NCBI GenBank assembly: GCA_963813815.1
Contig: CAWFAD010000016.1
Span: forward strand, 608,632-672,631
DNA: 64,000 nucleotides
Direction: 5' to 3'
DNA from: an uncultured bacterium
GTDB taxonomy: Bacteria; Krumholzibacteriota; Krumholzibacteriia; Krumholzibacteriales; Krumholzibacteriaceae
Of this stretch, positions 44,584 to 60,971 are shown piece by piece; positions within the stretch are counted from its first letter, which is position 1; every line of letters begins with the position of its first letter. The notes beneath the pieces were generated by a model. It saw only the letters and a list, made by a program, of their open reading frames with translations, searched no databases and had not been told where the DNA came from. The translations under genes and the position numbers were made by a program.

Positions 44584-45969
44584 TTACATATCTTCGCGAA
44601 CAGGGCACTCCACGGCGCGATCGCTTCCGGGTACCGTCATGTCGAGTGATTCGACAAGGCCGGAGGCTTCCAACCCATCGCAATTGATCTCCACAAACCA
44701 GCCTTGGTATGTTCCATGCAAAACCGAATACTTCGTGTGGCCCGCACAGAACGCTCTTGTCTCATCGACGAACATTGAATAAAAAGCCGACTGATAATCG
44801 TAGCTTCCGAGCGCGATATGATGGCGCGCGTTGCCCGTCGCGGGATCGAAGACCGAGAACAGTGCTAGGCCATACTGCAGATTGTCTTCCGTGGTCATGT
44901 AATGTGAAACCGCCCCGGTCGCATAGAGCGCGCTCGCCGTTGCGAAAACCGAGCTGTAACTGTCGGACCGTTTGCTGATATTGATCGTTCTGAGCCAGTT
45001 CAAAACGCCGCCGGAAGACATTGAAGCGATGAAGCCGTTGTCGAAATACCCGCCGCCCGAGATCTCTTTATCCACTGCGTCAGCCGATCCGGCCGTGAAA
45101 ATCGTATTGCCGCGAAGGGCTATCGCGTTGATCCAGATGGGCAATGCGCTGGTCTGCTCGATGTTGGCCGTCCATTGCACGGCGAATTCCGCTCCGCCCC
45201 GTTTCGGTCCTCCCACGGCGCAGACAGCGGCGCTCTCGGTTGCTCCCGCCGCGTTCAATTTGGTGATCGTGACGTAGCATACGAACTCGTTGGCGGTCGC
45301 CTTGGCTGGATCGGACACGACGTCGTTGAAATACTGTCGCTCCATGTCGGCAAATATCAGCTCGTTCGTTATGGTGAGCGAGCTGTCGGCGTTAAGATCG
45401 AACGTTATGAGATACGGATGCAGGGGCGAACCTGCGATGTATGCGCCACCGACTGCGACGAAATGGAGCGAATCTATGACCGCGACGGAATTCAGGTAAA
45501 CGGCCGTATCCGGTACGCTCGCGATCGCCTCTGAGAGAGATGCACCGCCCGCGCCCCTGAGCCGGACGTAGCCGTGATCGAGGCCGCCGTCGCTGTCGTA
45601 GTCAATCCCGCCGACCGCGAGTAGGGCGTCGTCCAACCCGATTGTGTTGTTCGGAACGGGGCAGAGTTCCCGCGATTTCAGAGCATCGGTCCACACCGTC
45701 ACGCCGCTTCGATTCAGCTTGCCGATGGTTTGCGTGTTGTCGAGCAAGCCTCTGAAGAAAAAGAAGCCCGCGCCGTCATCGTACAAATTGTAAATGCTGG
45801 TGTAGCTACTCAAACTTCCGAGGAACACTTGATTCGAGATACGTTCGTTGCTGAGCGGCAGTTGCTGCTCCGTGGGTTGCGGCTCGGTCGCTTCCTCGCA
45901 TCCGAGAGAGAGCATCGAGCCGAGAGAAAGGACGAGAGACAACAGCGCAACGTTCCATCGAATGGTCAT
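44584..45969 (-). CDS. Hypothetical lipoprotein, probable beta-propeller
   Basis: SLGC lipobox, GGAGG RBS; repeated beta-rich units (LLAVGG, FVAVGG, FTAGS, YATGA, FCAGH). Confidence 0.65.
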   Translation of the reverse strand: MTIRWNVALLSLVLSLGSMLSLGCEEATEPQPTEQQLPLSNERISNQVFLGSLSSYTSIYNLYDDGAGFFFFRGLLDNTQTIGKLNRSGVTVWTDALKSRELCPVPNNTIGLDDALLAVGGIDYDSDGGLDHGYVRLRGAGGASLSEAIASVPDTAVYLNSVAVIDSLHFVAVGGAYIAGSPLHPYLITFDLNADSSLTITNELIFADMERQYFNDVVSDPAKATANEFVCYVTITKLNAAGATESAAVCAVGGPKRGGAEFAVQWTANIEQTSALPIWINAIALRGNTIFTAGSADAVDKEISGGGYFDNGFIASMSSGGVLNWLRTINISKRSDSYSSVFATASALYATGAVSHYMTTEDNLQYGLALFSVFDPATGNARHHIALGSYDYQSAFYSMFVDETRAFCAGHTKYSVLHGTYQGWFVEINCDGLEASGLVESLDMTVPGSDRAVECPVREDM

Positions 45970-46038
45970 CGTCGTTTCCTCCTTCAGACTACCGAGTCGC
46001 CCTCGCCATGCAAGAGCGTTCGGGCCAACTGGGCCTTG

Positions 46039-46710
46039 CTACTTCCCGCCCCAGCGGTAGTTTACGCCCAGCGAAAACGTGAAGTGGTCCAGGCGCGGCG
46101 TTGCGACTTCGTATTCGGCCCAGAAATATTGATCCATCAGGGCGTTCGCCTTCTCATCGACCTTCGCCATGCCTCCGAAGGGAATCCTCCATCCCACTGA
46201 AACCTCGAGCGAGCCCGGTTCATCGCGTAACGGAAAGATCTCGGCGCCGACCAGCAGGGCCAGGCCGGGCAAGGGCTCGTACTCGACTGCGTCCTGGATC
46301 TCGCCCTCCTCGAGGGGCTCGAACACTATCACCGCCGATGCGTTGCTTTTCAGCAACACCGACAGCTTCGGACGGACGTAGCATTTCGGGTCAAGGAACA
46401 GCACGGAAATGCCAGCCGCATACGTGGGCTTCCAAACCCAGGGCTCCGTACCGATCGCCGCCTCAGCGATAAAGTAGTCCGTTCCAACGAAGCCCTTGAA
46501 TCCCATCGTTGCATACTGCGATCCGAATCCTCCTCCAAGCCCGAACACCATCCCGTCGCCATCCGGCATCCAGCTAGACGTGGTGGCTCCGATAACGTTG
46601 GACGGATAGCCCGCGGTCGCCAAAAATGCGAGCGCACATACCGCGATCCCGCAGACGAGACGGGATGCGGCCGGGCGCCGTATCGCACACTTCAAGGCAT
46701 CTAATGCCAT
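46039..46710 (-). CDS. Hypothetical outer-membrane beta-barrel protein
   Basis: GGAGG RBS, signal peptide, terminal strand FSLGVNYRW. Confidence 0.6.
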   Translation of the reverse strand: MALDALKCAIRRPAASRLVCGIAVCALAFLATAGYPSNVIGATTSSWMPDGDGMVFGLGGGFGSQYATMGFKGFVGTDYFIAEAAIGTEPWVWKPTYAAGISVLFLDPKCYVRPKLSVLLKSNASAVIVFEPLEEGEIQDAVEYEPLPGLALLVGAEIFPLRDEPGSLEVSVGWRIPFGGMAKVDEKANALMDQYFWAEYEVATPRLDHFTFSLGVNYRWGGK

Positions 46711-46792
46711 GGATCGATCCTCCCCCCTCAAGAGTCGGTTTGCAAACCGGAAATCAATGAGGTGATCCCCGCATATGAATCATGGATATTCA

Positions 46793-47785
46793 CTATAGCC
46801 GCCATATGATAAATACGGCGGGCGCAGGCATTACGGGCAAACCCCAGTCGAGTCCAGCGACCCGAAAATAGACCAACAGTTCTGCGCCAAGCCGCATATC
46901 TCCTCTGCCAAACTGAATGCGATAGCCGCCTCCAGCGAAATAGCCCTGTCCATCCCAATTCAACACGACCGCACCGGCAGCGCTGGGACCGTGCTGAAAT
47001 CCCTTTTTCTCGCGCATGCGATAGCCTTCCAATACAAGGGAAAACGGAGGATCAGGGACAGGAATGAACCCCGCTCTGGCTTCGAGATGCCAAACATCAT
47101 GGAACCGTATTCCCAACCCCGCCGATAACAGATCGGGCGCTCCCAGTCCCGCCCGTACGTGCATGCGGTCAACCCCGGAGGCCGAATTTTCAGCCATGGA
47201 GGACCAGCGATGGCGGAGAGCAACAGAAGTATAGACCCAAGGAGATGCCTCTTCCCCTGAATCGAGCGCGACGTCGCTACCGAGTTGAAAGCACAGGAAA
47301 CTGCCTTTGAAATGTTTCTTGAATGCGCGTCCGTATTCTATCCCGAGCCCGATATACTTATCTTTGTCATCCTCCGTAGAAAACATGCCCCCGCTGCCGT
47401 AGACGGACACATATGACGACTCTCGATCGATCAACTGAACGCTGATTTCACCTCCAACCTGGTTTATCCAGTAGATGGACTTGAATACTCCCCGCAGGCC
47501 GATGCCAGGCGCCACAATACCCGCATCGACAAAGATCAATGGCAAAAAGCCTTCGGAATCTCCAAATCCAACGCCCGTTTCGATTCCAATGCCAGCCACA
47601 AAAGAGCTTCTTTCAGTGCTTTCTTTTGAGGGTGTTTTCGCGCCGGGACGCTCATCGGCCAGATGGAAGCCAATCGCTTGGACAGGAAAGTCTGCCGAGA
47701 GATCTGCCGGCGAATTGAATGCGGCGGCACTCGTGGAAGAGCCCCCGAGCACGATCACCGCGAACATAACTCTAACTAACCTCAT
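46793..47785 (-). CDS. Hypothetical outer-membrane protein, possibly two small barrels in tandem
   Basis: Signal peptide (AAA-F); two strand-rich halves ending VALRHRW and FIIWRL; low GC. Confidence 0.55.
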   Translation of the reverse strand: MRLVRVMFAVIVLGGSSTSAAAFNSPADLSADFPVQAIGFHLADERPGAKTPSKESTERSSFVAGIGIETGVGFGDSEGFLPLIFVDAGIVAPGIGLRGVFKSIYWINQVGGEISVQLIDRESSYVSVYGSGGMFSTEDDKDKYIGLGIEYGRAFKKHFKGSFLCFQLGSDVALDSGEEASPWVYTSVALRHRWSSMAENSASGVDRMHVRAGLGAPDLLSAGLGIRFHDVWHLEARAGFIPVPDPPFSLVLEGYRMREKKGFQHGPSAAGAVVLNWDGQGYFAGGGYRIQFGRGDMRLGAELLVYFRVAGLDWGLPVMPAPAVFIIWRL

Positions 47786-48225
47786 GTGCGGCTTCCCTCT
47801 CTCTGCTTTATGCGCGCTATGGGCTGGCGTTTCATTGAGTTTTCTGCTGCAGTTGACGCGTTCTTCCCTGGATACCGCCATGAGACCTAGACCACATGTT
47901 CTTAGGGTAGACCGCCGCTTTCGGATTATTATGGGAGATTCGATCCTATGTCAATATCAAGGTGTGTCCAACGTGCACCGCATCGTTCGGCCGGCCGGGA
48001 CGAGACCACTCACCGAATCGGCGGTCAGTCACGCCTATTTAGTTCTTTCACCCCCCCGAATTCTCATGTAACATTGGCCGGTGCAACAAATCGCAGCGGG
48101 GGGAGCTGCGCCCCATGAGGAATCCGGTATTTTCTCAAACCATTGGAGCTTCGGATTGTAGTTAAGGGGACGCGTCTATGCGGCTGCTGTCCTTGGCTTT
48201 CGGCTTTGACCCGGAGGAGCACACT

Positions 48226-48982
48226 ATGAGCCCTGCGCGGGTGAGAGCGGCATGCGGCGTGAGAGCGATCGGAATATCGCTCATCGTCTCATTTCTATCG
48301 ATGACCGTTTTCTCTCCACTCCTGATGGCGCAATCCGGCGAAGAGCAGATATACGAGCGCTTTGAGGCGGCGAGCTCGCTGCGCTCTCAGGGCAAATACG
48401 GCGAGGCGGTGGAGATACTGCGCGGCATCATCGAGGAGTTCGCAAAATCGGATGAGATCCTGCGGCGCGCGTACAGCGATCTCGTTTTCACGCTTCTTTC
48501 GATGCAGGATGAGGTCGGCGCCGAGCGAGAGCGCAAGGCAAGCGCTTTCCAGCTATCCGGACCTCACGGCGGATCCCGTCTATTTTCCCCCTCGCGTAAA
48601 CGAGCTCTACGACAATTTGAGGAATCAGATGTACGGTGCGCTCAATGTGACCACGAAGCCCGAATCGTGCCGCGTGTTTCTCGGCGAGGCATTCATGGGA
48701 ACGGCTCCGCTGAGCGTCAAATTTGTGCGAGTAGGCGATTATACGCTCAACCTCAGCAAATCCGGTTACAAGGACGAGTCGTCTCCCGTTCGCATCGAGC
48801 CGGGCAGCCCGACGAGCGTGCAACTGGCGCTGCAAAAGCAGCGGGGGAAGAAGTGGTGGCTCTTCCGCGCCGGGCCGGGTGTGGCTCTCGCGGGCGTACT
48901 GGCATATTTGGGATTGCGCGGTGAAGAGGGCACCCCGGAACCGGAGCCGTTGCCGGGACCGCCGGCACCCCCGACGCAATAA
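48226..48982 (+). CDS. Exported TPR + PEGA protein with C-terminal hydrophobic segment and Pro-rich tail (one frameshift near 48525)
   Basis: GGAGGAG RBS, signal peptide, TPR (QGKYGEAVEIL); shifted frame: FPP, GALNVTTKPESCRVFLG...GTAPL...KSGY (PEGA), KKWWLF-hydrophobic-LPGPPAPP. Confidence 0.75.
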
Positions 48983-49070
48983 CGAGGGTGCGGCACAGCC
49001 CGGGAGCCGGGGTCATCGCACGTGTCGTTCGGAAGTTGGATTCGCATAGATCACATTTTTGGGGAACGCA

Positions 49071-51267
49071 ATGAGCTCGACGGACAACAGCGTCTTCCGC
49101 CCGATCCCCAATCCATACATCGTCGGCAATCCGATAAAAGACCCGAAGATGTTCTTCGGGCGCGAGGACGATTTTCTCTACGTGCAAAAGAAGTTTTCCG
49201 GGGGCAAAGAGGGGGGGATGATCGTTCTCTGCGGTGCGAGGCGAAGCGGCAAAACCTCGGTCCTCTTTCAGATTCTCAACGGCCGCCTCGGCGATGATTT
49301 TCTGCCGGTGCTCGTCGACATGCAATCGATGGCGATTCGGGACGATCGGGATCTGCTCGGGAAGCTCGCGCACGAAGTGATCGGTGCGGTCAATCATCCC
49401 GATATCACGATCGAAGGATTTCTGGAGGAGGCCGAGGATAACCCCTTCACCGCCTTCGAAAATCTCGTGCGCAGGATAAACGCCGCCGTGGGGGAGAAGA
49501 AACTCGTCTTCATGTTCGACGAATACGAGCTCTTCGAAACGAACATCGACTCCGGAATCATCAGCCCCAGCATCCTCAATCTCCTCGGAAATCTCATAGA
49601 GCACAAGAGGGTCTTCATCGTTTTTACCGGTTCCGACAATCTCGAGGCGAGAGACAAGCCCTACTGGGATATCTTCTTGAGCAAGGCGCTCCACCGGCGC
49701 ATCAGCTTCCTCAGCAGAGGAGATACGCTTCGTCTGATGCATCGGCCGGTGGAGGAATACGTTCGATACGGCGAGCCGGTGCCGGAGGCGATATACGCGA
49801 TGACCGCCGGGCAGCCGTTCTACACGCAGGTCCTCTGTCAGAGCATCGTCGATCACCTCAACGAATACCGCCGAAACGACGTGCGTCCCGATGACGTGAG
49901 GCAAGTCGTCGGCGAGATCATCGAGAATCCGCTTCCCCAGATGATTTTCAGTTGGAACGCTCATACGCATCTCGAGAAGCTCGCGCTGTCCATCATCGCC
50001 GAGCTGAGCAGGGAAGAGCCGAAACCGGTCACGCCAGGCGACATCGTCGACTTCGCGGAGCGCGAGAACATCGGGTATCGCCTCGACGTGAACGAGCTGA
50101 ATAAAACGTTCGAGAACCTCTTTCACGGCGACGTGCTCGACAAGGAAGCGGACGCGGATGCATACCGATTCAAGATGGATCTGTGGCGGCTGTGGGTGAG
50201 CCGGATGCATTCGGTATGGCAAACGATCGACGAAATGGAGCACAGCGAGGAGGGGCCGGAGGCGAAGGGCATCTATTCGACGGCGATCGCGAGGCGGAGA
50301 AAGCGGAGGATCATCGCGATCTCGGCCGCCGCCGCCGTCATCTTGTTCGGCCGCCATGTATGCGTTCTACGTGCGCTTCGGAACGGGAAGGCACGGCGGA
50401 TGCGGTCGATACGTCGATTCTCACCGTCAGCACGAATCCGGCGGCGGCGAACGTATTCGTCGACGACAGATGGATCGGCGCATCACCGGTGACTGAAGCG
50501 GAGGTGCCGGCGGCGAGCAGGACGCTCAGGATCGAGCTCGCCGGATATCGAACCGTCGTCGACAGTCTCGCGCTCGAGAAGGACAAGCCCAAGGAGCTGA
50601 GCTACGATCTCGTCGAGCTCACGGGCGATCTCAGTATCGCCTCGGAGCCTCCCGGCGCCTCGATCACCGTTGACGGCAATGAAACCGGCGCTCGTGACTC
50701 CCGCCGTCGTAAGCGGTCTCTCGGCGAATGCGCTCCATCGGATCGAGCTCCGACCTCGCCGGATACCAGACGGGCGTTCGGGACGGCATTCGCATTCAGA
50801 GAGACTCGATCGTGACGCTCAGTCATTCGTTCAGCAAGATGTCGGGCTCGCTCAGCATCAGTTCCCAGCCCGCCGAGGCCGAGGCATATCTCGACGGGAC
50901 GCCTCATCGGCACGACGCCGTGCATCGCGAGAGGGCCTTGCCTACGGACGCCACGAGCTGAGGGTGGTCAAGGCCGGCTATCGCACGTACGGGCCCAGGG
51001 CATCGACATTTCGAAAGCCGAAGGACAAGATCGACGTGGCTCTGAGCATTCTCCCTCCCGGGAAGATCATATTCAGCATCGAACCCTACGCCTCGGTAGC
51101 CATCAACGGGCGCGTCGTAAGGATGGACGTGACATATTACGAGGCCGAGCTGCCACCGGGGACGGTATACCGTCCTTCTTCAGCATCCGAAGTTCGCGCC
51201 CTATAGCGAAGAGGTCGAGGTGAAATCGAACGAATCGGTGACCATACGGCACAGATTCTCGAATTGA
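49071..51267 (+). CDS. STAND-class P-loop ATPase + TM helix + about four PEGA domains (3' part multiply frameshifted)
   Basis: NPYIVGNP, FFGRE, Walker A GARRSGKTS, Walker B VFMFDEYE, TAGQP; RRRKRR-TM; PEGA pieces in three frames 50400-51267 ending VTIRHRFSN*. Confidence 0.8.
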
Positions 51268-51279
51268 GAGGAAACGACG

Positions 51280-53217
51280 ATGATCGGCACGGTGATCGAG
51301 GGGAAGTACCGCATCGATAAGAAGCTCGGGCAGGGCGGATTCGGCGAGGTGTTTCGAGGGGTCGATCTCAATCTCAAACGGGACATCGCCATCAAGGTTT
51401 TGACCGATGCGGGACACGAGGAGGCATTCAAGAAGCGATTTCTCCGGGAAGCGGAGTTCATGGCGAAGCTCATGCATCCCAATATCGTGGCCGTGTTCGA
51501 TTTCGGCGAGATCGAGAGTCGCCCGTACCTCGTGCTCGAATTCGTCAACGGACCGTCTCTCATGGACATGACCGAGAAGGCCGGTATTCCGCTGGCGAAA
51601 GTATATGACTTCGCGCTGCAGACATGCCGGGGCATGGCCTACGCGCATGGGCAGGGCGTCATTCATCGCGACCTCACGCTCAACAACATCATGATCAACG
51701 ACCGCGAGGAAGCGAAGATCCTCGATTTCGGGCTCGCGAAGCTCATGACGCCCGATGCGCGTACGACGGTACAGTTCGCCGGCACGCCGTACTATATCGC
51801 GCCGGAGCAGATTCAAGGTGATGAGATAGATCATCGCGTCGATATCTTCGCGTTCGGCGTTGGACTGTTTCGCCTCGTGAACGGGCATTTCCCTTTCGAT
51901 GCCGAGCATCCCGCGGCGGTGTACTACGAAATCGTCCACGAAACGGACATCGAGTTCGTTCTGGGTCTGCCGGAGGAGCTCAAAGAGATTCTGGCGAAGT
52001 GCCTCGAGAAAAATCCATCCAATCGATATCAGGATTTCGGGTCGCTCGCCGAAGAGATCAAGAAACTGGCGCCCTCCACTGCCGGTTCGGCGGCCGAGAT
52101 GCCCGCGGCTCCGGCCGCCTACGTTCGCAGCAGCAGGCGAAACCCCTATCTCAACCGGGTGATGATACAGAATCCGGAGGATTTCTTCGGACGCAAGAAG
52201 GAAGTAACGAGGATTTACTCGCGCCTCGATGCGCCACACCCGCAGTCGATTGCGGTCGTCGGCGAGCGCCGGATGGGAAAATCCTCGCTCCTGAACTACA
52301 TCTACCATCGCAAGAATCGAAAACAGTTCATGCAGAATTATCACAATGCGATATTCGCTTATATGGATTTCCAACGGAGCCCCGACATAACGGTGCCGAA
52401 GTTCATCGATATCCTCTTCAGCATGTTCGAGTTCGAGCAGAAAAGGGAACTGCCCGCCGTTCATGGTGAGAAGAATCTCGATCATTTGCGGGATGCGATC
52501 GAAGCGCTGAGTGGGAAGGACAAGCGGGTCATCGTTCTTATGGACGAGTTCGAGATGATAACGAACAACGAGAAATTTGATATGCAGTTTTTCTCGTTTC
52601 TCCGTTTTCTCGCCAATAATTTCAAGGTGGCATACATCACCTCCTCGGCAAGGGATCTCCAGCAGCTCTGCCACACGAAGGACATCGCGGATTCGCCGTT
52701 CTTTAATATCTTTTCGAACCTGCCGCTTCGCCCCTTCGGCCACGACGAGGCATTCGAACTGATCAGCGTGCCCTCGCAACGCGAGGGGATCATGCTCGCG
52801 CCCTACGCCTCGCAGATAATCGATCTATCGGGATATTTCCCGCTCTACCTCCAGATCGCCTGCTCGAACGTTTTCGAGTGGCTGCTCGAGAATAAGGGGA
52901 TGGAGCCGGAGTGGGCGGAGATAGCGAAATCGTACAAGGAGGAGGTCCATCCGCACTACAACTTCGTGTGGGAGCGGATGGATGAGGCATCGAAGGACGT
53001 CATCTCTCGCGTGGCCAAGGGCAACAACCTCGGCAACAAGGACAGGCATGTCGCGGAGGAGCTTACGAGGCGGGGCTATTTGAGGGACGAGCAGGGGAAA
53101 TTCAACGTGTGCTCGTCGACATTCGGGGATTTTGTTCTCGAGCCATCACAGAAAGGCGCAGGAAAGAAATCTTTGTTCGCGTTTCCGTGGGGAAAGAGCG
53201 CCAAGAAGTTCAATTGA
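51280..53217 (+). CDS. Hanks-type Ser/Thr kinase fused to a C-terminal STAND-class ATPase
   Basis: LGQGGFGEV, AIK, HRDLTLNN, DFG, GTPYYIAPE; NPYLNR, FFGR, GERRMGKSS, VLMDEFE, SGYFP; no TM. Confidence 0.9.
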   Translation: MIGTVIEGKYRIDKKLGQGGFGEVFRGVDLNLKRDIAIKVLTDAGHEEAFKKRFLREAEFMAKLMHPNIVAVFDFGEIESRPYLVLEFVNGPSLMDMTEKAGIPLAKVYDFALQTCRGMAYAHGQGVIHRDLTLNNIMINDREEAKILDFGLAKLMTPDARTTVQFAGTPYYIAPEQIQGDEIDHRVDIFAFGVGLFRLVNGHFPFDAEHPAAVYYEIVHETDIEFVLGLPEELKEILAKCLEKNPSNRYQDFGSLAEEIKKLAPSTAGSAAEMPAAPAAYVRSSRRNPYLNRVMIQNPEDFFGRKKEVTRIYSRLDAPHPQSIAVVGERRMGKSSLLNYIYHRKNRKQFMQNYHNAIFAYMDFQRSPDITVPKFIDILFSMFEFEQKRELPAVHGEKNLDHLRDAIEALSGKDKRVIVLMDEFEMITNNEKFDMQFFSFLRFLANNFKVAYITSSARDLQQLCHTKDIADSPFFNIFSNLPLRPFGHDEAFELISVPSQREGIMLAPYASQIIDLSGYFPLYLQIACSNVFEWLLENKGMEPEWAEIAKSYKEEVHPHYNFVWERMDEASKDVISRVAKGNNLGNKDRHVAEELTRRGYLRDEQGKFNVCSSTFGDFVLEPSQKGAGKKSLFAFPWGKSAKKFN

Positions 53218-53227
53218 ATGGAGGATC

Positions 53228-56200
53228 ATGAGTATGAAGGTGGCCAGCAGAACGCTTGGATTTGGAGGAGCGGCAACTAACTGCGCGCTGCTATCACTGT
53301 TCATAGCTCAAATAATTTCATCTCGGGCAAAGGCTGATATTTTCTCGGCGGAACCTGTTTGGAGATCTGCGGTGGAGCAGAATACTTGTAGCATCGCCTT
53401 GGGTGATGTTGATGGCGATGGAGATTTGGACCTCGTATGTGGTGACCTCGGAGAAGGCAGCACGCTATTTATGAATGAGGGTGGAGTGTTTTCGACAACC
53501 CCAATTTGGACAAGCCCGGATCAGAAAACCTGGAGTGTTGCTTTGGGCGATATCGATCGTGATGGAGATTTGGACCTCGTATGCGGCAATTATGATCAAG
53601 GCAATACGCTCTTCTTGAATGAGGGAGGGATATTCTCGACAACGCCAGCCTGGATAGGGCCGGATCTGAACACGCGGGTAACGGTTGCTCTAGGAGATAT
53701 GAATGGTGATGGATATTTGGATCTCGTGTGCGCGCAGCGCGAACAGGGCAGTGCGCTTTATCTTAATGAGGGAGGAGCGTTTTCAAGAACAGCGGTTTGG
53801 ACAAGTCCGGATCAGAATACCTGGAGCGTTGCTTTGGGGGATGTAGATTGTGATGGGGATCTAGACCTCGTGTGCGGTAATGACGCGGGGGGTAGCACGC
53901 TTTTCTTGAATGAAGGTGGAGTTATTTCGACGATTCCGGCTTGGACGGGTCCCGCGTCGGTGTCGGGTGGACAGAGCGTCGTACTGGGGGATATAAATGG
54001 GGATGGTTATCTGGATCTCGTTTGGTGCGCCGATGAGGCCAGTATGCTTTTTTATAACGAAGGGGGGATTTTTTCTGCGACTCCGACGTGGACGAGCCCT
54101 TATCAAAGCGCACATAGCGCCGTTTTGGGAGATGTAGATGGCGATGGTGACCTGGACTTTGTGTCAGGCAGTGCGGCGTCCACTGCTACCGTGCTATTTT
54201 TGAATGAGGGAGGAATCTTCTCGACTACCCCGGCATGGTCGAATCCTTATCCAGGCATAGACAGTGTCGCTTTAGGGGATATGGATGGCGATGGGGATCT
54301 GGACCTTGCTTGTGGCCGCTACTACCAGAGCAGCACGCTCTTCTTGAACGAGACTGAAGCCTTTTCGACGACTCCGGTTTGGGCAAGCCCTGATCAGAAC
54401 ACGCATGATGTCGTTCTCGGAGACGTGGACGGAGACGGGGATTTGGATCTCGTGTGTGGTACTTACGGGCCGGGCAGCACGCTTTTCTTGAATCAGGGAG
54501 GGGTCTTGTCGACGACTCCGAGCTGGACCAGTCCGGAACAGAGCACGCACAGTGTTGCTTTGGGGGATGTGGATGGTGATGGCGATCTGGACCTCGTGTG
54601 TGGCAACGGTGAACTCGAGAACAGTGCGCTTTTCTGGAATGAGGGGGGAGTCTTTTCAACTACTCCTGTTTGGTCGAGTCCTGACCAAAACGCATATTGG
54701 TGTAGTGTTGCTTTGGGAGATGTGGATGGTGACGGGGATCTGGATCTCGTGTGCGGCAACTACGGGTATGGAACGGCTAGCAGGCTCTTTTTGAATGAGG
54801 ACGGGATTCTTTCGGGGACTCCCGCTTGGTCGAGTCCGTGGCAGTATACGTCCAGTGTTGCTTTAGGAGACGTGGATGCGGATGGGGATTTGGACCTTGT
54901 GTGCGGTAACTACAATGCCGAAAGTGCACTCTTCTTTAATGAAGGAGGAATCTTCTCGGCGACTCCGGCTTGGATGAGTCCGGTGCAGTCGACTCGCAGC
55001 ATCGCCTTGGGGGATGTGGATGGGGACGGTGATCTTGATCTCGTGTGCGGAAACAGCGGGGCCAGCATGCTTTTTCTAAACGAGGGAGACGTCTTTTCAC
55101 AGGCTCCAGCATGGCAGAGCCCCTTGCAGTCGACGCATGATGTAGATTTGGGGGATGTGGATGGGGACGGCGATTTGGATCTTGTGTGCGGTAACTTCGA
55201 TGCTGGAAGCACGATATTTATAAATGATGGTGGAGTGTTTTCGATAACCCCAATTTGGACAAGCCCGGATCAGATGACCCGGAGTATTGCTTTGAGTGAT
55301 ATCGATCGTGATGGTGATTTGGACCTCGTGTGCGGCAACGAGGGGAACGAATCACTACTCTTCAATGGAAAAGGCAATCCGGTTTTTTCCGGAAATCCTT
55401 TGGCTCCCACAAATCAACTCCCGAACAATAGCGCTTTTCTGCGGGATGTCAGCGTAACGGAATTGGAAAAGAATGTTTATCGCGTTTCGGCCAAACTCTT
55501 TGATGTTGAGTCTGACCCGGGGTGGATCGTTCCCGAATATCAATTCGAGGGAGCAGCAGTCTGGCATCGGGCTGACATTCTCGAATACTCGAGTAATATT
55601 GGTCCATTGATCGCGTCTCCCTATGGTATGGAACAAGAGTTCAATTGGAATGTGTCAAAGGTGCCATTTGATAAGCGCGGAATTATTCTGCGCTTGCGCA
55701 CGATTTCTATCCCCGCCCGTGGCGGCAGTATTCAGCATGTAGCATCCTATCGCAAGAATGTTGGCCATGTTGACGTGCGCAGACCCGAGATTGCCTCGTC
55801 TGTTTCCCTGCTTCTATTTCCGACCGTGACCGTCGGTGATACGCTTGCTTTGGATTTGCTTCTCTCAAACTGCGGGAACGAGCCATTAGTAATTACGGGG
55901 TTCGATCTTCCATCCAGTGAAATATGTGCTGATGTTATTCTGCCGATTATCTTGGGGCCGGAGCAGAAAATTACTGTGCCCGTGTTTCTTGAACCTCGGC
56001 AGGAAACGAGCATCGAAGGCAGCTTGACGATCGAAAGCAATGATCCGCTTACCCCGAGCAAGACCATTCAAATTGGGACCGATATTCGTGCCTTGCAGGT
56101 AAACAGCAAACTTCTTACGACTGCGCCGGAGCTCCCCTTGGGAGAAGCGGTAACCGTTGTCGTAACTCCGCTGCCGCAGGTGCGGGTCGAGAATGGTTGG

Positions 56201-58183
56201 ATCTATCACCGAGCCGGCAATGAGGCCGGAACGTTTCAAGATAGCATCCAGCTATCGAAGTATGATGACAACTATATTGCGATAATTCCCGGTGCTGCGA
56301 TAGCTGAAGCCGGCCTCGAGTATTACATCAAAGTGGAGAATAGCGGCGTATTCGCCACCGATCCTCCGGGTGCGCCGAGTGATTCGGTTTATTCGCGGGC
56401 AGTCACATCCCCGGAGCACATCACAACGGTCGCTCAGCCCAACTCGGGGGCCGACTTTCTCGAGGGGAGAGATATTAAGGTGCTCGCTTCGCTGCCCCTT
56501 GGCTCGGAGTTTGTGGAGGGCACGCTGCATTATCGAATGGGAGGGGAATCGGCGTATCGCACGTCTCCGCTCGAGGCCGGCGATCCGCTGCCCTTTGCTG
56601 TAATCCCGGATAGTCTCGTGGGACCGGGGGGGCTCGAGTACTGGGTCGAGGTGCAAACGCTCACGGCGAGGCTGACAGATCCGCCGGGGGCGCCTGCGGG
56701 GTCTCCGCATTTCATCAGAGTGACCGTTCCTGATCTAGTGGAAGAAAAGCTGTATCCTGCGGAGGCCTATCGTATGGTATCGATTCCGCTTGATTTTGGG
56801 ATCGATTTCACGGGGACGCTCGAGGCGCTCCTCTCAGATCAAACGGCATTCGGGCCGTACGATCCGGTGAAGTGGCGATCGTTCCGTTACCTATCGGGGA
56901 CGAAAGCGTATGCCGAGCTGTCGGAGGCGACGAAGCCGGAGTTTGTACCGAAGCCCGGGAAGGCTTTCTGGCTCATTTCGGCGAGCAAGAATCGGATCGG
57001 CACGGCGCCGGTGCCAGGACTCTCGACTGCCACGGATAGCGCGTATGCGCTTGCGCTCGAGCCGGGATGGAACATGATCGGGAACCCGTTTTCATTTCGT
57101 GTGGCATGGGATTCTGTCATGATCGATGGTGTGAGGATAGCGGATGCTGAGTCGACGACGGTGGAGCCGCCGGTGGCGTATGTGATCAACAAGGGCTATC
57201 GGGTCGATGAGGAGATTCTCGAGCCGTTCGGCGGGTACTGGGTGAAGAACTTGAGCAATGCCGCCGTGGTGCTGCGGATACCCGCGGAAGAGGCGCCCTC
57301 GCCGCCTTCTCTCAGCGATTCGATGGCGGTGGCGGCGGCTGCGCCGATTGAGGATGGCTGGCGCCTCGAGCTTCGAGCCGTGAGCTGCGATGTGGAGGAT
57401 TCCGGTAACTACGCCGGCGTCGACCTCGGATCGACGGTAGGATGGGACTGGCATGACCGCTCGAAACCGCCGATGAATCCGGGACGATCGCTTTCCCTCT
57501 ATTTTCCGCATTGGAGTTGGGAGAGCCATGGAGACAACTATGCGGCCGATATTCGCGGCGCCTACGAGGCCGTGCCTGCCGCCGAGCTCAGGCTTGTGGC
57601 GCCCTCAGAGGAGCTCTGGGGCCACATCTGGCGCTTCGATGTGTCAAAGGACTTCGAAGAGGCGGGAGTCGGGGATGTCGTGACGCTCGAGGTTGCGGGG
57701 ATCGAGGGGTTGCCCCCCGAGGCGAGAGTTTATCTCATAGACAAGGAGCTTGGGCGGTGCGTTGATGCGCGGGTGGAAAGCGGTTATGCCTTCTACCTTT
57801 GGCGCCGGGAGCCGGTATCCGAGGTCGAGGCGCGGTTTGTTCTCATTGTGGGGAGCGAGGAGTTTGCGGAGAGCGGCAAGGATGAGCTACCGTCCCCTCC
57901 CGAGCGCACGGCGCTTCATCAGAACTATCCTAACCCCTTTAATCCGTCGACGATCGTTCGATACGACGTGGCGAATGCGTGCAATGTCAGATTGGCCGTC
58001 TACGACGCGAGCGGCGCATTGGTGAAGGTTCTCTGGGACGGCCATCGCTTGCCCGGCCGTTATGAGGCGGCATGGGACGGCAGAAATAAAAACGGCCGAT
58101 CTGTTTCGACAGGCATTTACTTTACGCGCCTGCAAACGGGCTCGGGGATCGCCCAAACCCGGAAGATGCTCCTCATTCGATAA
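53228..58183 (+). CDS. Large secreted FG-GAP/VCBS repeat protein with Ig-like domains and FlgD/T9SS-type-A-like C-terminal domain
   Basis: GGAGG RBS, signal peptide (AKA-D), 14 x GDVDGDGDLDLVCGN-type repeats, ASH-like Ig (SNCGNEPLVI...IESNDP), LEPGWNMIGNPF, HQNYPNPFNP...KMLLIR*. Confidence 0.9.
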   Translation: MSMKVASRTLGFGGAATNCALLSLFIAQIISSRAKADIFSAEPVWRSAVEQNTCSIALGDVDGDGDLDLVCGDLGEGSTLFMNEGGVFSTTPIWTSPDQKTWSVALGDIDRDGDLDLVCGNYDQGNTLFLNEGGIFSTTPAWIGPDLNTRVTVALGDMNGDGYLDLVCAQREQGSALYLNEGGAFSRTAVWTSPDQNTWSVALGDVDCDGDLDLVCGNDAGGSTLFLNEGGVISTIPAWTGPASVSGGQSVVLGDINGDGYLDLVWCADEASMLFYNEGGIFSATPTWTSPYQSAHSAVLGDVDGDGDLDFVSGSAASTATVLFLNEGGIFSTTPAWSNPYPGIDSVALGDMDGDGDLDLACGRYYQSSTLFLNETEAFSTTPVWASPDQNTHDVVLGDVDGDGDLDLVCGTYGPGSTLFLNQGGVLSTTPSWTSPEQSTHSVALGDVDGDGDLDLVCGNGELENSALFWNEGGVFSTTPVWSSPDQNAYWCSVALGDVDGDGDLDLVCGNYGYGTASRLFLNEDGILSGTPAWSSPWQYTSSVALGDVDADGDLDLVCGNYNAESALFFNEGGIFSATPAWMSPVQSTRSIALGDVDGDGDLDLVCGNSGASMLFLNEGDVFSQAPAWQSPLQSTHDVDLGDVDGDGDLDLVCGNFDAGSTIFINDGGVFSITPIWTSPDQMTRSIALSDIDRDGDLDLVCGNEGNESLLFNGKGNPVFSGNPLAPTNQLPNNSAFLRDVSVTELEKNVYRVSAKLFDVESDPGWIVPEYQFEGAAVWHRADILEYSSNIGPLIASPYGMEQEFNWNVSKVPFDKRGIILRLRTISIPARGGSIQHVASYRKNVGHVDVRRPEIASSVSLLLFPTVTVGDTLALDLLLSNCGNEPLVITGFDLPSSEICADVILPIILGPEQKITVPVFLEPRQETSIEGSLTIESNDPLTPSKTIQIGTDIRALQVNSKLLTTAPELPLGEAVTVVVTPLPQVRVENGWIYHRAGNEAGTFQDSIQLSKYDDNYIAIIPGAAIAEAGLEYYIKVENSGVFATDPPGAPSDSVYSRAVTSPEHITTVAQPNSGADFLEGRDIKVLASLPLGSEFVEGTLHYRMGGESAYRTSPLEAGDPLPFAVIPDSLVGPGGLEYWVEVQTLTARLTDPPGAPAGSPHFIRVTVPDLVEEKLYPAEAYRMVSIPLDFGIDFTGTLEALLSDQTAFGPYDPVKWRSFRYLSGTKAYAELSEATKPEFVPKPGKAFWLISASKNRIGTAPVPGLSTATDSAYALALEPGWNMIGNPFSFRVAWDSVMIDGVRIADAESTTVEPPVAYVINKGYRVDEEILEPFGGYWVKNLSNAAVVLRIPAEEAPSPPSLSDSMAVAAAAPIEDGWRLELRAVSCDVEDSGNYAGVDLGSTVGWDWHDRSKPPMNPGRSLSLYFPHWSWESHGDNYAADIRGAYEAVPAAELRLVAPSEELWGHIWRFDVSKDFEEAGVGDVVTLEVAGIEGLPPEARVYLIDKELGRCVDARVESGYAFYLWRREPVSEVEARFVLIVGSEEFAESGKDELPSPPERTALHQNYPNPFNPSTIVRYDVANACNVRLAVYDASGALVKVLWDGHRLPGRYEAAWDGRNKNGRSVSTGIYFTRLQTGSGIAQTRKMLLIR
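53400..55345 (+). repeat. 14 tandem intragenic repeats of about 48 aa (about 144 bp)
   Basis: Counted 14 (G/S)D-x-(D/N)-x-DG-x-LD motifs, each followed by LFxNEGGxFSxTPxW in all but the last. Confidence 0.9.
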
Positions 58184-58206: not shown

Positions 58207-59166
58207 TCAGCGCGCGGCGTGTATCGCGACCGTTCCGCCCTCCGGGGCGTCGGGCTGCACGTCCGCGGCGCACTGGATGCGGCTCGGGTCGCCGAGGATG
58301 AGCGGTTCGAGCGCGCCGGCGATGCGCTTGGCGAGTTGGTCGGCTTCCTGGTACGTGCGCGCCGACACGGCGACGCGGACGGGGCCGTCGGGCCGGCCGG
58401 TCTGATTGATCCTGCTCGCCGCGTCGAGAAGAACCGCGGGCGCGGCGGCGTCGCCCGCCCGGCCGGCGGGCTCGACGGCGAGACCGGTCCCCGGGAACAT
58501 AAGGACGAGCTCGGCGCCCGTAACGAGCTCGTAGGGGGGAAGCTCGAAACCCTTGCCGACGAAGTTGCGCTTGTTCCCCGCGCGGTCGTACGCCTCGACG
58601 ACGAACGAATAGGTGAGGCCGGGCGGCATGAGACTTCCGTCGGACGATCGGCCGTTCCAGCCGATCTCGCGGGGCGGGGATCCCTTTCCCTCGAAGGAAG
58701 CGACGGAGCGGCTCCGTGAATCCGCGATCGTGAGCCGCCACCGGTCGACGTCCGTGAGCGCGGGACGGAAGCGGACCACTTCGCCCGTCGCGAAAACCTC
58801 GAGCCAGGGCCTCGCGAGGTAGGGCGAGCGCCCACCGGCGGAGAGGTCCACGAGCGGAGCGATGAAATCGACCGCGCATCGGCCGAAGGCGTCGCGCGTG
58901 AAATCCCAGTCGAGGCCGGGCGCGCTGAGGGGATCGAGATCGAGCGAGAGCGCGGGGCGTTCGAACTCGATGCGGACTCTGTCCTCGCCCTCGATCGTGA
59001 GGCTCTTGAACACCGTTCCTTCCTCGTCCCCCTTGAGCGTCATCGAGCTGTCCGCGACGGCCCGCTCGACGGCCGGCGGCTTTTTCTCCTCGGCCGAGGC
59101 CCGCGAGCCGGCGGCGAAGAAGGCGACTCCCATCACGACGAGCAACCGAATGGCTTCGGCACGCAT
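58207..59166 (-). CDS. Exported protein with FlgD-like Ig domain and degenerate OmpA-like C-terminal region
   Basis: Signal peptide (ASA-E); WRLTIAD...IGWNGRSSDG...YSFVVEAYDRAGN; last gene of the exbBD-tonB operon. Confidence 0.6.
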   Translation of the reverse strand: MRAEAIRLLVVMGVAFFAAGSRASAEEKKPPAVERAVADSSMTLKGDEEGTVFKSLTIEGEDRVRIEFERPALSLDLDPLSAPGLDWDFTRDAFGRCAVDFIAPLVDLSAGGRSPYLARPWLEVFATGEVVRFRPALTDVDRWRLTIADSRSRSVASFEGKGSPPREIGWNGRSSDGSLMPPGLTYSFVVEAYDRAGNKRNFVGKGFELPPYELVTGAELVLMFPGTGLAVEPAGRAGDAAAPAVLLDAASRINQTGRPDGPVRVAVSARTYQEADQLAKRIAGALEPLILGDPSRIQCAADVQPDAPEGGTVAIHAAR

Positions 59167-59200
59167 GATTCCACGCTCCATCCCGTTCGGCGGCGGACGG

Positions 59201-60124
59201 TCAGCCCGCCAGCCGGTAGTTGAAAGTGATCGATCCCCACTGCTCTCCGGTTTCGCCGCCCCTCAGGGGCTCGAATCGCCACGCGATGAGCGCGTCGATC
59301 GCGTTCTGGTCGAAATCCTCGAAGCCGGAGGTCTTCTCGATGAGAATGTTCTCCTTTACCGTTCCGCTCGGCAGGACGATGAAGTAGAGCGTCAAGGTCG
59401 CCTCCACGCCCTCGCCCTTCGCCCAATCCGGATAGACGGGCTTCCGGTATGAAACGAGCGCACGATCGGCGACCGGTCCGGCGAGGCTCGCGCCGTCGAT
59501 GATCCGCCGCGCCGACGAGTCGGTCTTTTCGATTTTCGCCGCGGCGACGGCCTTCTCCGGCGGCGCGCTCGCCGCCGCGAGCCTCGTCCGCCGGGGTTCG
59601 CTCCGCGCGAGCGCGACGGGGGAGGGCGCCGCGCCTTCGCGGCGCGTCAGCGCCACCGCGTCCCTCGACGCCGTTCCGTCGTTCAAGACGCTCGCGAGCG
59701 AGGGACGCACGATCGCGCTCTGCACCGCGACGTCCGCGATCGACGCCTGCGCCGTAGCCCTCCGCTCGAGAGCGACGAGCTTGCGTTGCAGCAGATCTTG
59801 CGTCGCCTGCCGGTCCTGCGGCCGAGGAGCGAAATCGCTCTCGCTCGTCGTGCGGACGAAATGCTCCGGGTTCTGCGGGGGCGACGGCAGGATGAGCCTC
59901 TCCATCCGCGACTCCGTCTTCGCGGTCGCCGTGGACGCGGGCGGCGGGATCACGACGGGCTCGATCCAGCTGATCTCGGTGAGCGCCGGCGCCGGCGGGA
60001 CGATCGTGTGGCGCAGGGCGAGCATCAGGAACAGCAGCGCGTGGATGCCGAGACTCGCGAACGTCACTTTCCGCGTTCTCGCTTGAATCGCCGAAATCTC
60101 GAAACTCAAAGCATATGCGTTCAT
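59201..60124 (-). CDS. tonB: TonB family energy transducer
   Basis: TM with S-x3-H (SLGIH), Pro/Ala-rich linker, TonB_C (PVYPDWA...EG...TSG...DQNAIDALIAWRFEP). Confidence 0.85.
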   Translation of the reverse strand: MNAYALSFEISAIQARTRKVTFASLGIHALLFLMLALRHTIVPPAPALTEISWIEPVVIPPPASTATAKTESRMERLILPSPPQNPEHFVRTTSESDFAPRPQDRQATQDLLQRKLVALERRATAQASIADVAVQSAIVRPSLASVLNDGTASRDAVALTRREGAAPSPVALARSEPRRTRLAAASAPPEKAVAAAKIEKTDSSARRIIDGASLAGPVADRALVSYRKPVYPDWAKGEGVEATLTLYFIVLPSGTVKENILIEKTSGFEDFDQNAIDALIAWRFEPLRGGETGEQWGSITFNYRLAG

Positions 60125-60135
60125 GGGTTCCCCCA

Positions 60136-60549
60136 TCAGTTGCTCTGGAGTGTAGCGACGGCGAGCCGGTTGCCTCCCGCGGCCCGCGCCTTGCCGAGCA
60201 TTTCCCGTATCGCGCCGTACGGGACTTCCCGGTCCGCGCGCACGACGACGAGCACGTTCTTGTCGGACGCCTTCGCGAGCACGGAGCACAGGGTCGCGGC
60301 GAAGAGCTCCGGACGCACCGTGTTCTCGTTGATGGCGAGCTCGCCGCGTCTTCCCATCGTGATGCTCACGTTGAACTCGTTCTCGGCTCCGCGGGTGAGC
60401 GCGGACGGGAGGTCGACGTCGACGTCGGGGACGCAGAGCATCGGCGCCGTCATGAGCAGAATGCAGACGAGCGTGAGCGAGACGTCGATGATCGGCGTCA
60501 CGTTGACCCTGGCGGTCGCGGGAATTCCGCTCTCGATGATCCGTTTCAT
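60136..60549 (-). CDS. exbD: ExbD/TolR family protein
   Basis: VNVTPIIDV, VDLP, VVVRADREVPYG. Confidence 0.9.
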   Translation of the reverse strand: MKRIIESGIPATARVNVTPIIDVSLTLVCILLMTAPMLCVPDVDVDLPSALTRGAENEFNVSITMGRRGELAINENTVRPELFAATLCSVLAKASDKNVLVVVRADREVPYGAIREMLGKARAAGGNRLAVATLQSN

Positions 60550-60550
60550 G

Positions 60551-60961
60551 TTACCTCCCGAGCACGGCGATCTCCGCCGCCCCGCAGATCTTCGCCTGGT
60601 CGAGAACGTTGACGAAAGCGCCGTGCGACACGGCGTCGCCGCATTCGATAACGATCCGCCGCTCCGTTCGATTCTCGAGGAGCGGTTCGAGCGCGGCCGC
60701 GATCTCCGCCCGGGCGACGAGACGGCGGTTGACGAGCACGCTGTCCTCCGAGACGATGTTGAGCTCGACGCGTTCCTCTTTCTGCTCCTTGGCCGAGGCC
60801 TTCGCGCTCGCGAGCGCCTTGCGGATCGCGATGCTCGACTCGAAGGCGAGCGGCGTGAGCAGCAGCAGTATCACGACGAGCGTGAGCGAGACGTCGATGA
60901 GCGGCGTCATGTTGATGTCGTGAACGGCTTGGGTCGCCTGTAATTTCGATGCGCGCGCCAT
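60551..60961 (-). CDS. exbD: ExbD/TolR family protein (second paralog)
   Basis: INMTPLIDV, IVIECGDAVSHGAFVNVLD; alternative start 60970. Confidence 0.88.
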   Translation of the reverse strand: MARASKLQATQAVHDINMTPLIDVSLTLVVILLLLTPLAFESSIAIRKALASAKASAKEQKEERVELNIVSEDSVLVNRRLVARAEIAAALEPLLENRTERRIVIECGDAVSHGAFVNVLDQAKICGAAEIAVLGR

Positions 60962-60971
60962 GCGGTGCACC

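What the first reader, a model, noticed from the sequence alone, without database searches (positions are those of the whole stretch)
48226..58183. Candidate new signalling system: a split receptor kinase coupled by two STAND ATPases, with a TPR-PEGA partner and a secreted FG-GAP protein
Seen: four co-directional genes (gaps 88, 12 and 10 nt): (1) exported TPR-PEGA; (2) cytoplasmic STAND ATPase-TM-periplasmic PEGA x~4; (3) soluble Ser/Thr kinase-STAND ATPase; (4) large FG-GAP protein with a C-terminal sorting-type domain. Both ATPases keep the NPY/FFGR N-terminus, Walker A GxRRxGK[ST]S, Walker B hhhhDE and the G-x-x-P helix motif. Known: kinase-TM-PEGA receptors beside TPR-PEGA proteins are common in myxobacteria, STAND ATPases signal by oligomerising, and some MNS-clade STANDs are encoded as adjacent pairs. 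Inference: the usual kinase-TM-PEGA receptor is cut in two, and an ATPase-ATPase hetero-oligomer carries an envelope signal to the kinase, resembling a transmembrane NLR/resistosome. It could serve surface sensing or defence. I do not know a characterised system with this architecture.
Basis: partly seen in the sequence, partly recalled or inferred. Interest (0 to 1): 0.82.

Follow-up and report, generated by a model that had tools for sequence, protein, structure and literature searches.

The report
Paired-ATPase envelope receptor with protein kinase
Four neighbouring genes form a conserved, uncharacterised cassette in which a membrane-spanning receptor and a separate protein kinase each carry an ATP-driven switch domain, which looks like an undescribed way for bacteria to pass a signal from the cell surface to the inside.

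Summary
The four genes are real and belong together. Genes 1 and 2 are frameshifted in this assembly (about 7-8 single-base slips, probably read errors) but intact in relatives. Gene 2 is ATPase A-TM-PEGAx4; gene 3 is kinase-ATPase B (Pfam nSTAND2). Both ATPases keep intact Walker motifs and fold like archaeal MJ-type STAND ATPases. The A/B pair recurs in ten or more bacterial groups (66 of 80 B loci have A nearby), with exchanged sensors and outputs (kinase, cyclase, phosphatase, sigma-54 activator, TIR). Genes 1 and 4 track the pair (15 and 16 of 17 genomes, against 5 of 84). In one relative the same ectodomain, gene 1 and gene-4-type proteins sit with a one-piece receptor kinase, so the pair works like a receptor kinase in two parts. 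A literal split is unsupported. Defence is not favoured by gene context. ATPase-ATPase contact is inferred, untested: the complex predictor was unavailable. Closest print: the predicted nSTAND2 two-gene operon, which has one dead ATPase and no membrane sensor. This scan noted the same cassette before on other DNA.

The parts
48226..48982 (+). Gene 1: signal peptide, TPR-like helical domain, one PEGA domain, C-terminal hydrophobic helix and Pro-rich tail; one extra base near 48517 in this assembly
   Evidence: PEGA E 8e-11; frameshift mapped against L012 and L013; intact 253-292 aa orthologues; TPR-like by weak Pfam in L017 and in the G074 partner
49071..51267 (+). Gene 2: ATPase A, one TM helix, four PEGA repeats; 6-7 single-base slips after about 50350 in this assembly
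   Evidence: intact 729-747 aa orthologues; four-repeat ectodomain alignment
49089..50249 (+). ATPase A domain (open frame): Walker A at 49233-49259, Walker B at 49512-49529, GxP motif, winged helix
   Evidence: alignment A3; AlphaFold pLDDT 95, best solved matches 1FNN, 2FNA, 1W5T, 2QEN
50311..50376 (+). Approximate TM helix of gene 2, preceded by a basic patch; a slip lies in or just after it
   Evidence: three-frame reading; one hydrophobic stretch at residues 403-422 in intact orthologues
50405..51264 (+). PEGA x4 ectodomain of gene 2, spread over three frames here
   Evidence: PEGA E 7e-18; tblastn pieces; 52% identity to L012 over 340 residues after the ATPase
51280..53217 (+). Gene 3: Hanks-type kinase (catalytic loop at 51664-51687 without the usual Lys) fused to ATPase B; no TM segment; intact
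   Evidence: Pkinase E 9e-58, nSTAND2 E 1e-51; no TM; loop survey
52129..53154 (+). ATPase B domain: Walker A at 52261-52287, Walker B at 52537-52554, invariant SPFFNIF at 52693-52713
   Evidence: alignment A4; AlphaFold pLDDT 92, best solved matches 2QEN and 2FNA; PDB sequence hit 2FNA E 2e-9
53228..58183 (+). Gene 4: 1651-aa secreted protein: signal peptide, 13 FG-GAP repeats, Ig-like middle, conserved C-terminal module, FlgD_ig / T9SS-A-like tail; intact
   Evidence: co-occurs with the ATPase pair in 16 of 17 genomes

Best explanation
A trans-envelope signalling cassette built on a pair of MJ/MNS-type STAND ATPases. Shown by sequence and comparison: gene 2 is a single-pass membrane protein with ATPase A on one side and four PEGA repeats on the other; gene 3 is a soluble kinase fused to ATPase B; genes 1 and 4 are exported and are inherited with the pair. 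Inferred steps: (1) the gene-4 surface protein and the tethered gene-1 protein engage or cluster the PEGA ectodomain; (2) this switches ATPase A to its ATP-bound, assembling state; (3) A recruits B into a mixed oligomer, as in ORC/Cdc6 or paired NLRs; (4) the kinase domains are brought together, trans-phosphorylate and phosphorylate a target that is not encoded in the cassette. The likely job is reporting surface contact, or the export state of the gene-4 protein, rather than killing the cell. The window copy is probably intact in the organism (about 0.75).
For: Pairing: 66 of 80 B-anchored loci hold an A gene; 3 lack one with 5 kb or more read on both sides, 11 are cut short. 63 of 79 A-anchored loci hold B; 4 lack it, 12 are cut short. 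In 101 phylum genomes A and B are each in 15 and together in 13; the 4 single cases lie at contig ends. A carries sensor-type outer domains: PEGA, Kelch, periplasmic binding protein, two-component propellers, sortilin, FGE-like, multi-TM. B carries outputs: kinase 37, cyclase 20, TIR 6 of the best 150 representatives, some with two, plus SpoIIE 5, CHAT 4, sigma-54 activator 3, and caspase, TIR, ArsR, FliN and DUF835 1 each among 35 scanned. Walker A G-R-R-G-K and Walker B D-E are 88-100% conserved in both. The same outer parts are wired to a one-piece kinase with an ECF sigma factor in G073 and, more loosely, to TIR-TM-PEGA in G074. Genes 1 and 4 occur in 15 and 16 of 17 genomes with A or B, against 5 of 84 without. 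Neighbours are mostly housekeeping or envelope genes.
Against: No test of A-B contact was obtained. The A/B distance correlation (rho 0.71) is also what shared descent gives. No conserved substrate gene was seen beside the cassette. The kinase lacks the catalytic-loop Lys, as do 36 of 38 kinases in the two PEGA-linked clades, so activity is not certain. The split into membrane A and soluble B is not strict in the wider family: 31 of 150 B representatives have TM-like stretches, and some A proteins show no clear TM. TIR, caspase and CHAT outputs are immune-type. The cassette is patchy (ATPase B in 1 of 15 other genomes of the genus) and lower in GC3 than its flank (0.52-0.78 against 0.87), as defence genes often are. 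No expression data.
Confidence: 0.55

Rival explanations
1. An immune receptor pair: the ectodomain senses phage or predator attack on the envelope, the ATPases assemble a resistosome-like ring and the kinase arrests or kills the cell.
For: ATPase B belongs to Pfam nSTAND2, named from a predicted counter-invader operon. Relatives carry TIR, caspase and CHAT outputs. A similar ectodomain is fused to TIR in G074. Patchy spread and lower GC3. One ThsB-like TIR gene follows the kinase gene in L016; restriction-modification-like genes lie between A and B in L149 (read by eye).
Against: Of 120 neighbouring ORFs from 33 loci, 5 hit PADLOC at 1e-15, and each of the 5 is a housekeeping protein by Pfam (TatD, DEAD helicase, RidA, FtsH, amylase; no background control was run). 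Neither ATPase matches a PADLOC model well (A none, B E 1e-7 at best). Cyclase, SpoIIE, sigma-54 and FliN outputs fit ordinary signalling.
Confidence: 0.2
2. The ATPase pair is a motor or checkpoint for export and display of the large gene-4 surface protein, with gene 1 as periplasmic chaperone; the kinase only tunes it.
For: Genes 1 and 4 track the pair. Gene-4-type proteins keep a C-terminal module under variable N-terminal passengers (FG-GAP, beta-helix, RCC1, DUF11). Outer-membrane barrels sit beside the pair in Calditrichota- and Gemmatimonadota-labelled loci.
Against: Genes 1 and 4 occur together with no ATPase pair found (G026, G073). Most A/B pairs outside this phylum have no gene-4 relative nearby. 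B's variable domains are signalling enzymes.
Confidence: 0.1
3. Both genes act in one pathway, but each ATPase forms its own homo-oligomer and they communicate through a small molecule or a third protein.
For: In one complete chromosome A and B lie far apart (L050, L118). Spirochaete- and Calditrichota-labelled loci add a stand-alone second B. A and B are only 18-22% identical.
Against: Near-obligate pairing, with stop-start overlap or gaps under 25 nt in most PEGA/kinase loci. Kaur et al. 2021 predicted a hetero-multimer for the related nSTAND2 pair.
Confidence: 0.1
4. History: one kinase-TM-PEGA receptor gene was cut by insertion of two ATPase domains.
For: A one-piece kinase-TM-PEGA with this very ectodomain and the same neighbours exists in G073.
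Against: Order is A-TM-PEGA then kinase-B, not kinase-B then A-TM-PEGA. The G073 kinase is of another lineage (canonical loop, ECF-linked); holding it with the window clade is rejected at p-AU 0.028 on a quick tree. B-fused kinases come from at least five lineages. No kinase domain is listed for the best 120 of 245 long A relatives.
Confidence: 0.05

Closest known systems
nSTAND2 two-gene operon (Kaur, Iyer, Burroughs, Aravind 2021, eLife, PMC8195603, Fig. 6C; prediction only)
   Same: Two adjacent genes, each with an MNS-like STAND module and winged helix; predicted hetero-multimer; ATPase B hits the Pfam nSTAND2 model at E 1e-51.
   Different: There one ATPase is eroded and carries HEPN or GT4. 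Here both are intact, one spans the membrane with an outer sensor, and the output is a kinase. PEGA has 0 hits in their Fig. 6 source file. One row of it (Calditrichaeota: barrel, STAND+wHTH, kinase+cyclase) resembles a member of this wider family but is not discussed in the sections read.
MJ-type/MNS STAND ATPases: SSO1545 (2FNA), PAB2304 (2QEN); Npun2340/2341 family of Leipe et al. 2004 (name seen in PMC8195603, content recalled)
   Same: Fold (TM 0.55-0.61), N-terminal hhGR motif, Arg-rich P-loop, C-terminal winged helix.
   Different: The solved proteins are stand-alone ATPases of unknown role; identity 14-19%.
One-piece Hanks-type receptor kinases (kinase-TM-PEGA; PknB/Stk1-like topology), including ECF-linked kinases (ECF43, ECF59-62; PMC7826278)
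   Same: Same inputs and output; G073 uses this ectodomain on such a kinase next to a TIGR02999 ECF sigma factor; the window's own genome has an ordinary kinase-TM-PEGA.
   Different: Sensor and kinase lie on separate chains, each with an ATPase; atypical catalytic loop; no sigma factor beside the window cassette.
Paired NLRs, resistosomes and bacterial Avs proteins (general knowledge; resistosome chains appear among fold hits at TM about 0.5)
   Same: STAND-class switch; sensor chain plus executor chain.
   Different: Sensor is outside the cytoplasm; no LRR/TPR sensor behind the ATPase in the cytoplasm; no defence-island context; closer in fold to archaeal MJ-type and ORC/Cdc6 ATPases.

Membership tests
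STAND ATPases, MJ/MNS type (features recalled from Leipe 2004) | N-terminal hhGR motif, Walker A and Walker B | tested here: met
   88-100% conserved key residues in 81 A and 81 B sequences
STAND ATPases, MJ/MNS type (features recalled from Leipe 2004) | GxP helical bundle followed by winged helix | tested here: met
   GxP in A, GxxP in B; whole-length fold match to 2QEN and 2FNA
nSTAND2 two-gene operon (Kaur 2021) | Two adjacent genes each with a STAND module | tested here: met
nSTAND2 two-gene operon (Kaur 2021) | One module matches the nSTAND2 family | tested here: met
   Gene 3 E 1e-51, above the Pfam cut-off; gene 2 no hit
nSTAND2 two-gene operon (Kaur 2021) | NTP-binding motifs of one module eroded | tested here: not met
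   Walker Lys and Asp invariant in both. Stand-alone second B copies in other groups have more variable P-loops
nSTAND2 two-gene operon (Kaur 2021) | Effector is HEPN or GT4 | tested here: not met
   Kinase here; no HEPN or GT4 among the families shown for the proteins scanned
nSTAND2 two-gene operon (Kaur 2021) | Conserved arginine finger, toroidal hetero-multimer | tested here: inconclusive
   B has an invariant Arg after Walker B, A a partly conserved one before strand 5; position in an interface not tested
One-piece receptor Ser/Thr kinase | Kinase, TM and ectodomain on one chain | tested here: not met
   Gene 3 has no TM; stop and new start between genes 2 and 3 here and in orthologues
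Hanks-type Ser/Thr kinase | Gly-rich loop, AxK lysine, HRD..N, DFG, APE | tested here: met
   Read directly; Pkinase E 9e-58
Hanks-type Ser/Thr kinase | Lys two residues after the catalytic Asp (recalled motif) | tested here: not met
   Thr in the window; 10 of 11 other own-genome kinases with a readable loop keep Lys; 22 of 25 in the window's clade have Arg or Lys four after the Asp, the window has Asn
Avs / bacterial NLR anti-phage systems | Effector, STAND and cytoplasmic repeat sensor on one chain; defence-island context | tested here: not met
Avs / bacterial NLR anti-phage systems | Ligand-triggered oligomerisation and phage protection | not testable with these tools
   Needs bench work

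The most novel reading that the evidence does not exclude
The A/B ATPase pair is a general, plug-in class of bacterial transmembrane signalling, beside two-component, ECF and receptor-kinase systems. A membrane ATPase with an exchangeable outer sensor switches on a partner ATPase with an exchangeable output (kinase, cyclase, phosphatase, sigma-54 activator, flagellar switch domain, TIR, caspase) by nucleotide-dependent co-assembly, with no phosphorelay. This cassette is the version that reads a secreted integrin-like FG-GAP protein through PEGA and TPR partners.
Probability: 0.4. Interest if true: 0.88.

Novelty: new variant of a known kind. Interest (0 to 1): 0.68.

Why it matters
STAND ATPases are known as cytoplasmic switches, mostly in immunity and transcription. 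A pair in which one partner spans the membrane and the other carries ordinary signalling enzymes would be a separate route from surface to cytoplasm. It is present in many little-studied phyla: 893 clusters at 50% identity match the B profile at E 1e-30 or better. Natural swaps show which parts are interchangeable, and at least one cultured organism (Pelolinea submarina, L097) has an A/B pair, so it can be tested. It would also bear on how sensor-plus-executor NLR pairs arose.

Tried and rejected
Reads: one DNA run with a small word share was listed and no RNA holder; its contigs do not cover the frameshift sites, so no conclusion on errors, habitat or expression. Promoter and terminator scan: 6 and 8 sites against 5.1 and 8.6 expected, uninformative. 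Atlas search with the gene-4 middle: top score 0.86, unnamed clusters, a lead only. Protein-level frameshift control timed out and was replaced by a DNA-level one, whose 'in ORF' tag is unreliable in GC-rich DNA. The careful kinase tree did not finish; only quick trees were used. Word search with the ectodomain returned close orthologues, generic PEGA proteins and one weak kinase-PEGA (31 hits; only 8000 candidates scored). A collection scan with the ectodomain alignment was not possible for lack of a conserved stretch. The A/B distance correlation was not counted as proof of co-evolution. Rejected: chance adjacency (pairing counts), gene 4 as a mere passenger (profile), literal split (order, tree), strict nSTAND2 membership (both ATPases intact).
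Full report
1. Observation. Genes 3 (645 aa) and 4 (1651 aa) are open. Genes 1 and 2 are broken by frameshifts. A frameshift-aware alignment to intact orthologues puts one extra base near 48517 in gene 1. In gene 2 it finds six events at about 50389, 50693, 50751, 50902, 50930 and 51165, five of them extra bases. The first may be two extra bases flanking the end of the TM helix, as the three-frame reading suggests. These are probably assembly errors. In 161,063 bases aligned to a same-genus genome, 75 non-triplet indel clusters were listed, many at gene ends by eye; nine crowd into about 1.1 kb of a GalT-like gene, seven of them net insertions in this assembly. The same patchy, insertion-rich pattern in a housekeeping gene points to unpolished stretches. 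Reads could not settle it. I put an intact copy at about 0.75.

2. Anatomy. Gene 1: signal peptide, helical TPR-like domain, one PEGA, then a Trp/basic patch, hydrophobic helix and Pro-rich tail kept in all 14 aligned orthologues. Gene 2: ATPase A, one TM, four PEGA repeats. Gene 3: kinase plus ATPase B, no TM. Gene 4: signal peptide, 13 FG-GAP repeats, Ig-like middle and an FlgD/T9SS-A-like tail. A and B are distant homologues (profile probability 98%, 18% identity). Both fold with high confidence (pLDDT 95 and 92). Their nearest solved structures are the archaeal ATPases 2QEN and 2FNA and ORC/Cdc6 proteins; plant resistosome chains and Avs4 rank lower. Walker residues are 88-100% conserved in 81 pairs. 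The kinase has Thr where Hanks kinases have Lys two after the catalytic Asp. This holds for 36 of 38 kinases in the two PEGA-linked clades; 22 of 25 in the window's clade have Arg or Lys four after the Asp, a tyrosine-kinase-like spacing (motif recalled), while the window copy has Asn. 10 of 11 other kinases of the genome keep the Lys.

3. Synteny. L012, L013 and L017 have all four genes intact in the same order. Among 39 distinct A-TM-PEGA loci, 35 hold B, 36 a kinase, 29 gene 1 and 20 gene 4; among the 21 with enough flank the counts are 20, 20, 17 and 17. Genes 1 and 4 stay near the pair even when moved upstream or to the other strand. In an even sample of 101 genomes of the phylum, B is in 15, A in 15, both in 13; the four single cases lie at contig ends. 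Gene 4 is in 16 and gene 1 in 15 of these 17, against 5 each of the other 84. Kin are not independent, but the carriers are scattered over five families. In G100 the pair, gene 1 and gene 4 lie at three separate places of one chromosome. Close relatives in named records are labelled Ca. Krumholzibacteriota, Latescibacterota and Eisenbacteria.

4. The wider family. Scans kept the best 80 of 106 B matches and the best 80 of 207 A matches (79 loci); the two sets overlap. 66 of 80 B loci hold an A gene (3 lack one with full flanks, 11 are cut short); 63 of 79 A loci hold B (4 and 12). Record labels include Acidobacteriota, Spirochaetota, Chloroflexota, Calditrichota, Cloacimonadota, Gemmatimonadota, Glassbacteria, Fibrobacteraceae and Desulfobacterales. 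A carries PEGA, Kelch, periplasmic binding protein, two-component propeller, sortilin, FGE-like or multi-TM input regions, before or after the ATPase (58 chosen proteins). B carries kinases at either end, cyclases or TIR, or stands alone. Of the best 150 representatives (893 at E 1e-30): kinase 32, kinase+cyclase 5, cyclase 14, cyclase+TIR 1, TIR 5, stand-alone or fragment 40, other 53. Of 35 of those 53: SpoIIE 5, CHAT 4, sigma-54 activator 3, and caspase, TIR, ArsR, FliN and DUF835 one each, 18 unnamed. 31 of the 150 have TM-like stretches, so 'B is soluble' is a rule for this subfamily, not for all. Spirochaete-labelled loci pair A-TM-PEGA with a cyclase-B and an exported protein whose N-terminal domain is homologous to gene 1 (profile probability 95%, E 2e-8).

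5. Natural swaps. A search of 208 phylum genomes with the ectodomain gave 27 matches in 26 genomes: 25 on ATPase A, one on a one-piece kinase-TM-PEGA (G073) and one, weaker, on TIR-TM-PEGA (G074). The G073 sequence was in that alignment, but it had scored 248 bits on a profile without it and is 43% identical over 287 aa to a gene-2 orthologue. In G073 the order is ECF sigma factor (TIGR02999), receptor kinase, gene 1, two gene-4-type proteins, and no A or B was found. So the ATPase pair plus kinase fills the place of an ordinary receptor kinase. It is not the same kinase: the G073 enzyme has a canonical loop, and grouping it with the window clade is rejected at p-AU 0.028 on a quick tree of 22 chosen kinases. 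Gene-4-type proteins share a C-terminal module under variable N-terminal parts (FG-GAP, beta-helix, RCC1, DUF11), which makes that module a candidate ligand (inference).

6. Mechanism. Most likely (0.55): gene-4 and gene-1 proteins cluster or strain the PEGA ectodomain; ATPase A switches and recruits ATPase B; the kinases meet and activate. Topology and inheritance are shown by sequence; each dynamic step is inferred from how STAND and ORC-type ATPases work (general knowledge). The complex predictor was not available, so A-B contact is untested. Defence (0.2) draws on nSTAND2 kinship, TIR and caspase outputs, patchiness and low GC3. Against it, 5 of 120 neighbouring ORFs from 33 loci hit PADLOC and all five are housekeeping proteins by Pfam (no background control). 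Export motor (0.1), separate homo-oligomers (0.1) and literal split (0.05) are less likely.

7. Literature. Kaur et al. 2021 (PMC8195603): I read sections 7 and 15, passages by term, part 19 of 61 of the Fig. 6 source file and a term search of that file. It predicts a two-gene nSTAND2 operon with one inactive ATPase fused to HEPN or GT4; 'PEGA' has 0 hits in the main text and in that file. Its other 12 supplements were not read. Kaur et al. 2020 (PMC7159879; passages) reports TM-PEGA domains in iSTAND ternary and GAP1 systems, which are built differently. bioRxiv 10.64898/2026.01.04.697583 (passages) shows no paired membrane STAND text; its supplements are closed and may list these clades. PMC7826278 (passages) covers kinase-linked ECF groups. 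PMC11032199 (term search) had nothing relevant. Leipe et al. 2004 was not read; what I say of it is recalled. Searches (0 papers), 70, 84, 100, 115 and 124 were seen as listings and showed no description of this architecture; the library lacks most subscription journals.

8. Earlier notes of this scan. Notes on other genomes describe the paired-ATPase sensor and kinase (e1-7297735, e1-1170335), the same four-gene cassette (e1-1170334) and an ECF-linked version (e1-3787601). They are leads, not support. The idea of exchanged sensors and outputs across phyla came from e1-1170335 and was then tested here.

9. Verdict. A real, conserved and apparently undescribed cassette; a new variant of the paired MNS-type STAND systems, not a member of the nSTAND2 operon as defined. 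Interest 0.68. If the pair proves to be a general transmembrane signalling class (0.4), interest 0.88.

Noticed in passing
L201 (G073) 5853-16876, minus strand: ECF sigma factor, one-piece kinase-TM-PEGA, gene-1 orthologue and two gene-4-type proteins: the same outer parts without the ATPase pair.
   Followed up: yes
L236 (G074) 1790-10036, minus strand: TIR-TM-PEGA, then a TPR protein with the same tail as gene 1, then a DUF11 protein with the gene-4 C-terminal module.
   Followed up: partly
L200 (G026) 8031-11334: Gene-1 orthologue directly followed by a short gene-4-type protein without FG-GAP repeats; no receptor seen beside them.
   Followed up: partly
L066-L083, L090: Spirochaete-labelled four-gene version: A-TM-PEGA, exported TPR-like protein, stand-alone B, cyclase-B.
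   Followed up: partly
L134, L136, L151, L154, L163: Calditrichota-labelled version: A-TM, outer-membrane-barrel-like protein, often a stand-alone B, then kinase-cyclase-B.
   Followed up: partly
L051 4707-9062: ATPase B in one frame with an AcrB-family transporter (1451 aa); a real fusion or an artefact of the start call.
   Followed up: no
P0049: ATPase B fused to a FliN/FliM C-terminal domain, a possible link to the flagellar switch.
   Followed up: no
L149 6663-8551; L016 14640-15062: Restriction-modification-like genes between A and B in L149 (by eye); a ThsB-like TIR gene after the kinase gene in L016.
   Followed up: no
G000:C11:142432-143506: Second patch of dense, mostly inserted bases, in a GalT-like gene: this assembly has local error patches.
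   Followed up: yes
window 58207-63995, minus strand: Convergent cluster: long TPR protein, ExbB/TolQ, two ExbD-like genes, TonB and an FlgD_ig protein; the same order beside gene 4 in G004.
   Followed up: partly
window 44584-47881, minus strand: Three exported-looking genes without Pfam hits and with low GC3, divergent from gene 1; with the cassette they form a lower-GC stretch (46-58 kb).
   Followed up: no
window 41869-44519: A 458-aa exported protein without Pfam hit, followed by a YidD-TPR fusion.
   Followed up: no
window 35984-38413: Alpha/beta hydrolase fused to an Omp85-like barrel end (809 aa).
   Followed up: no
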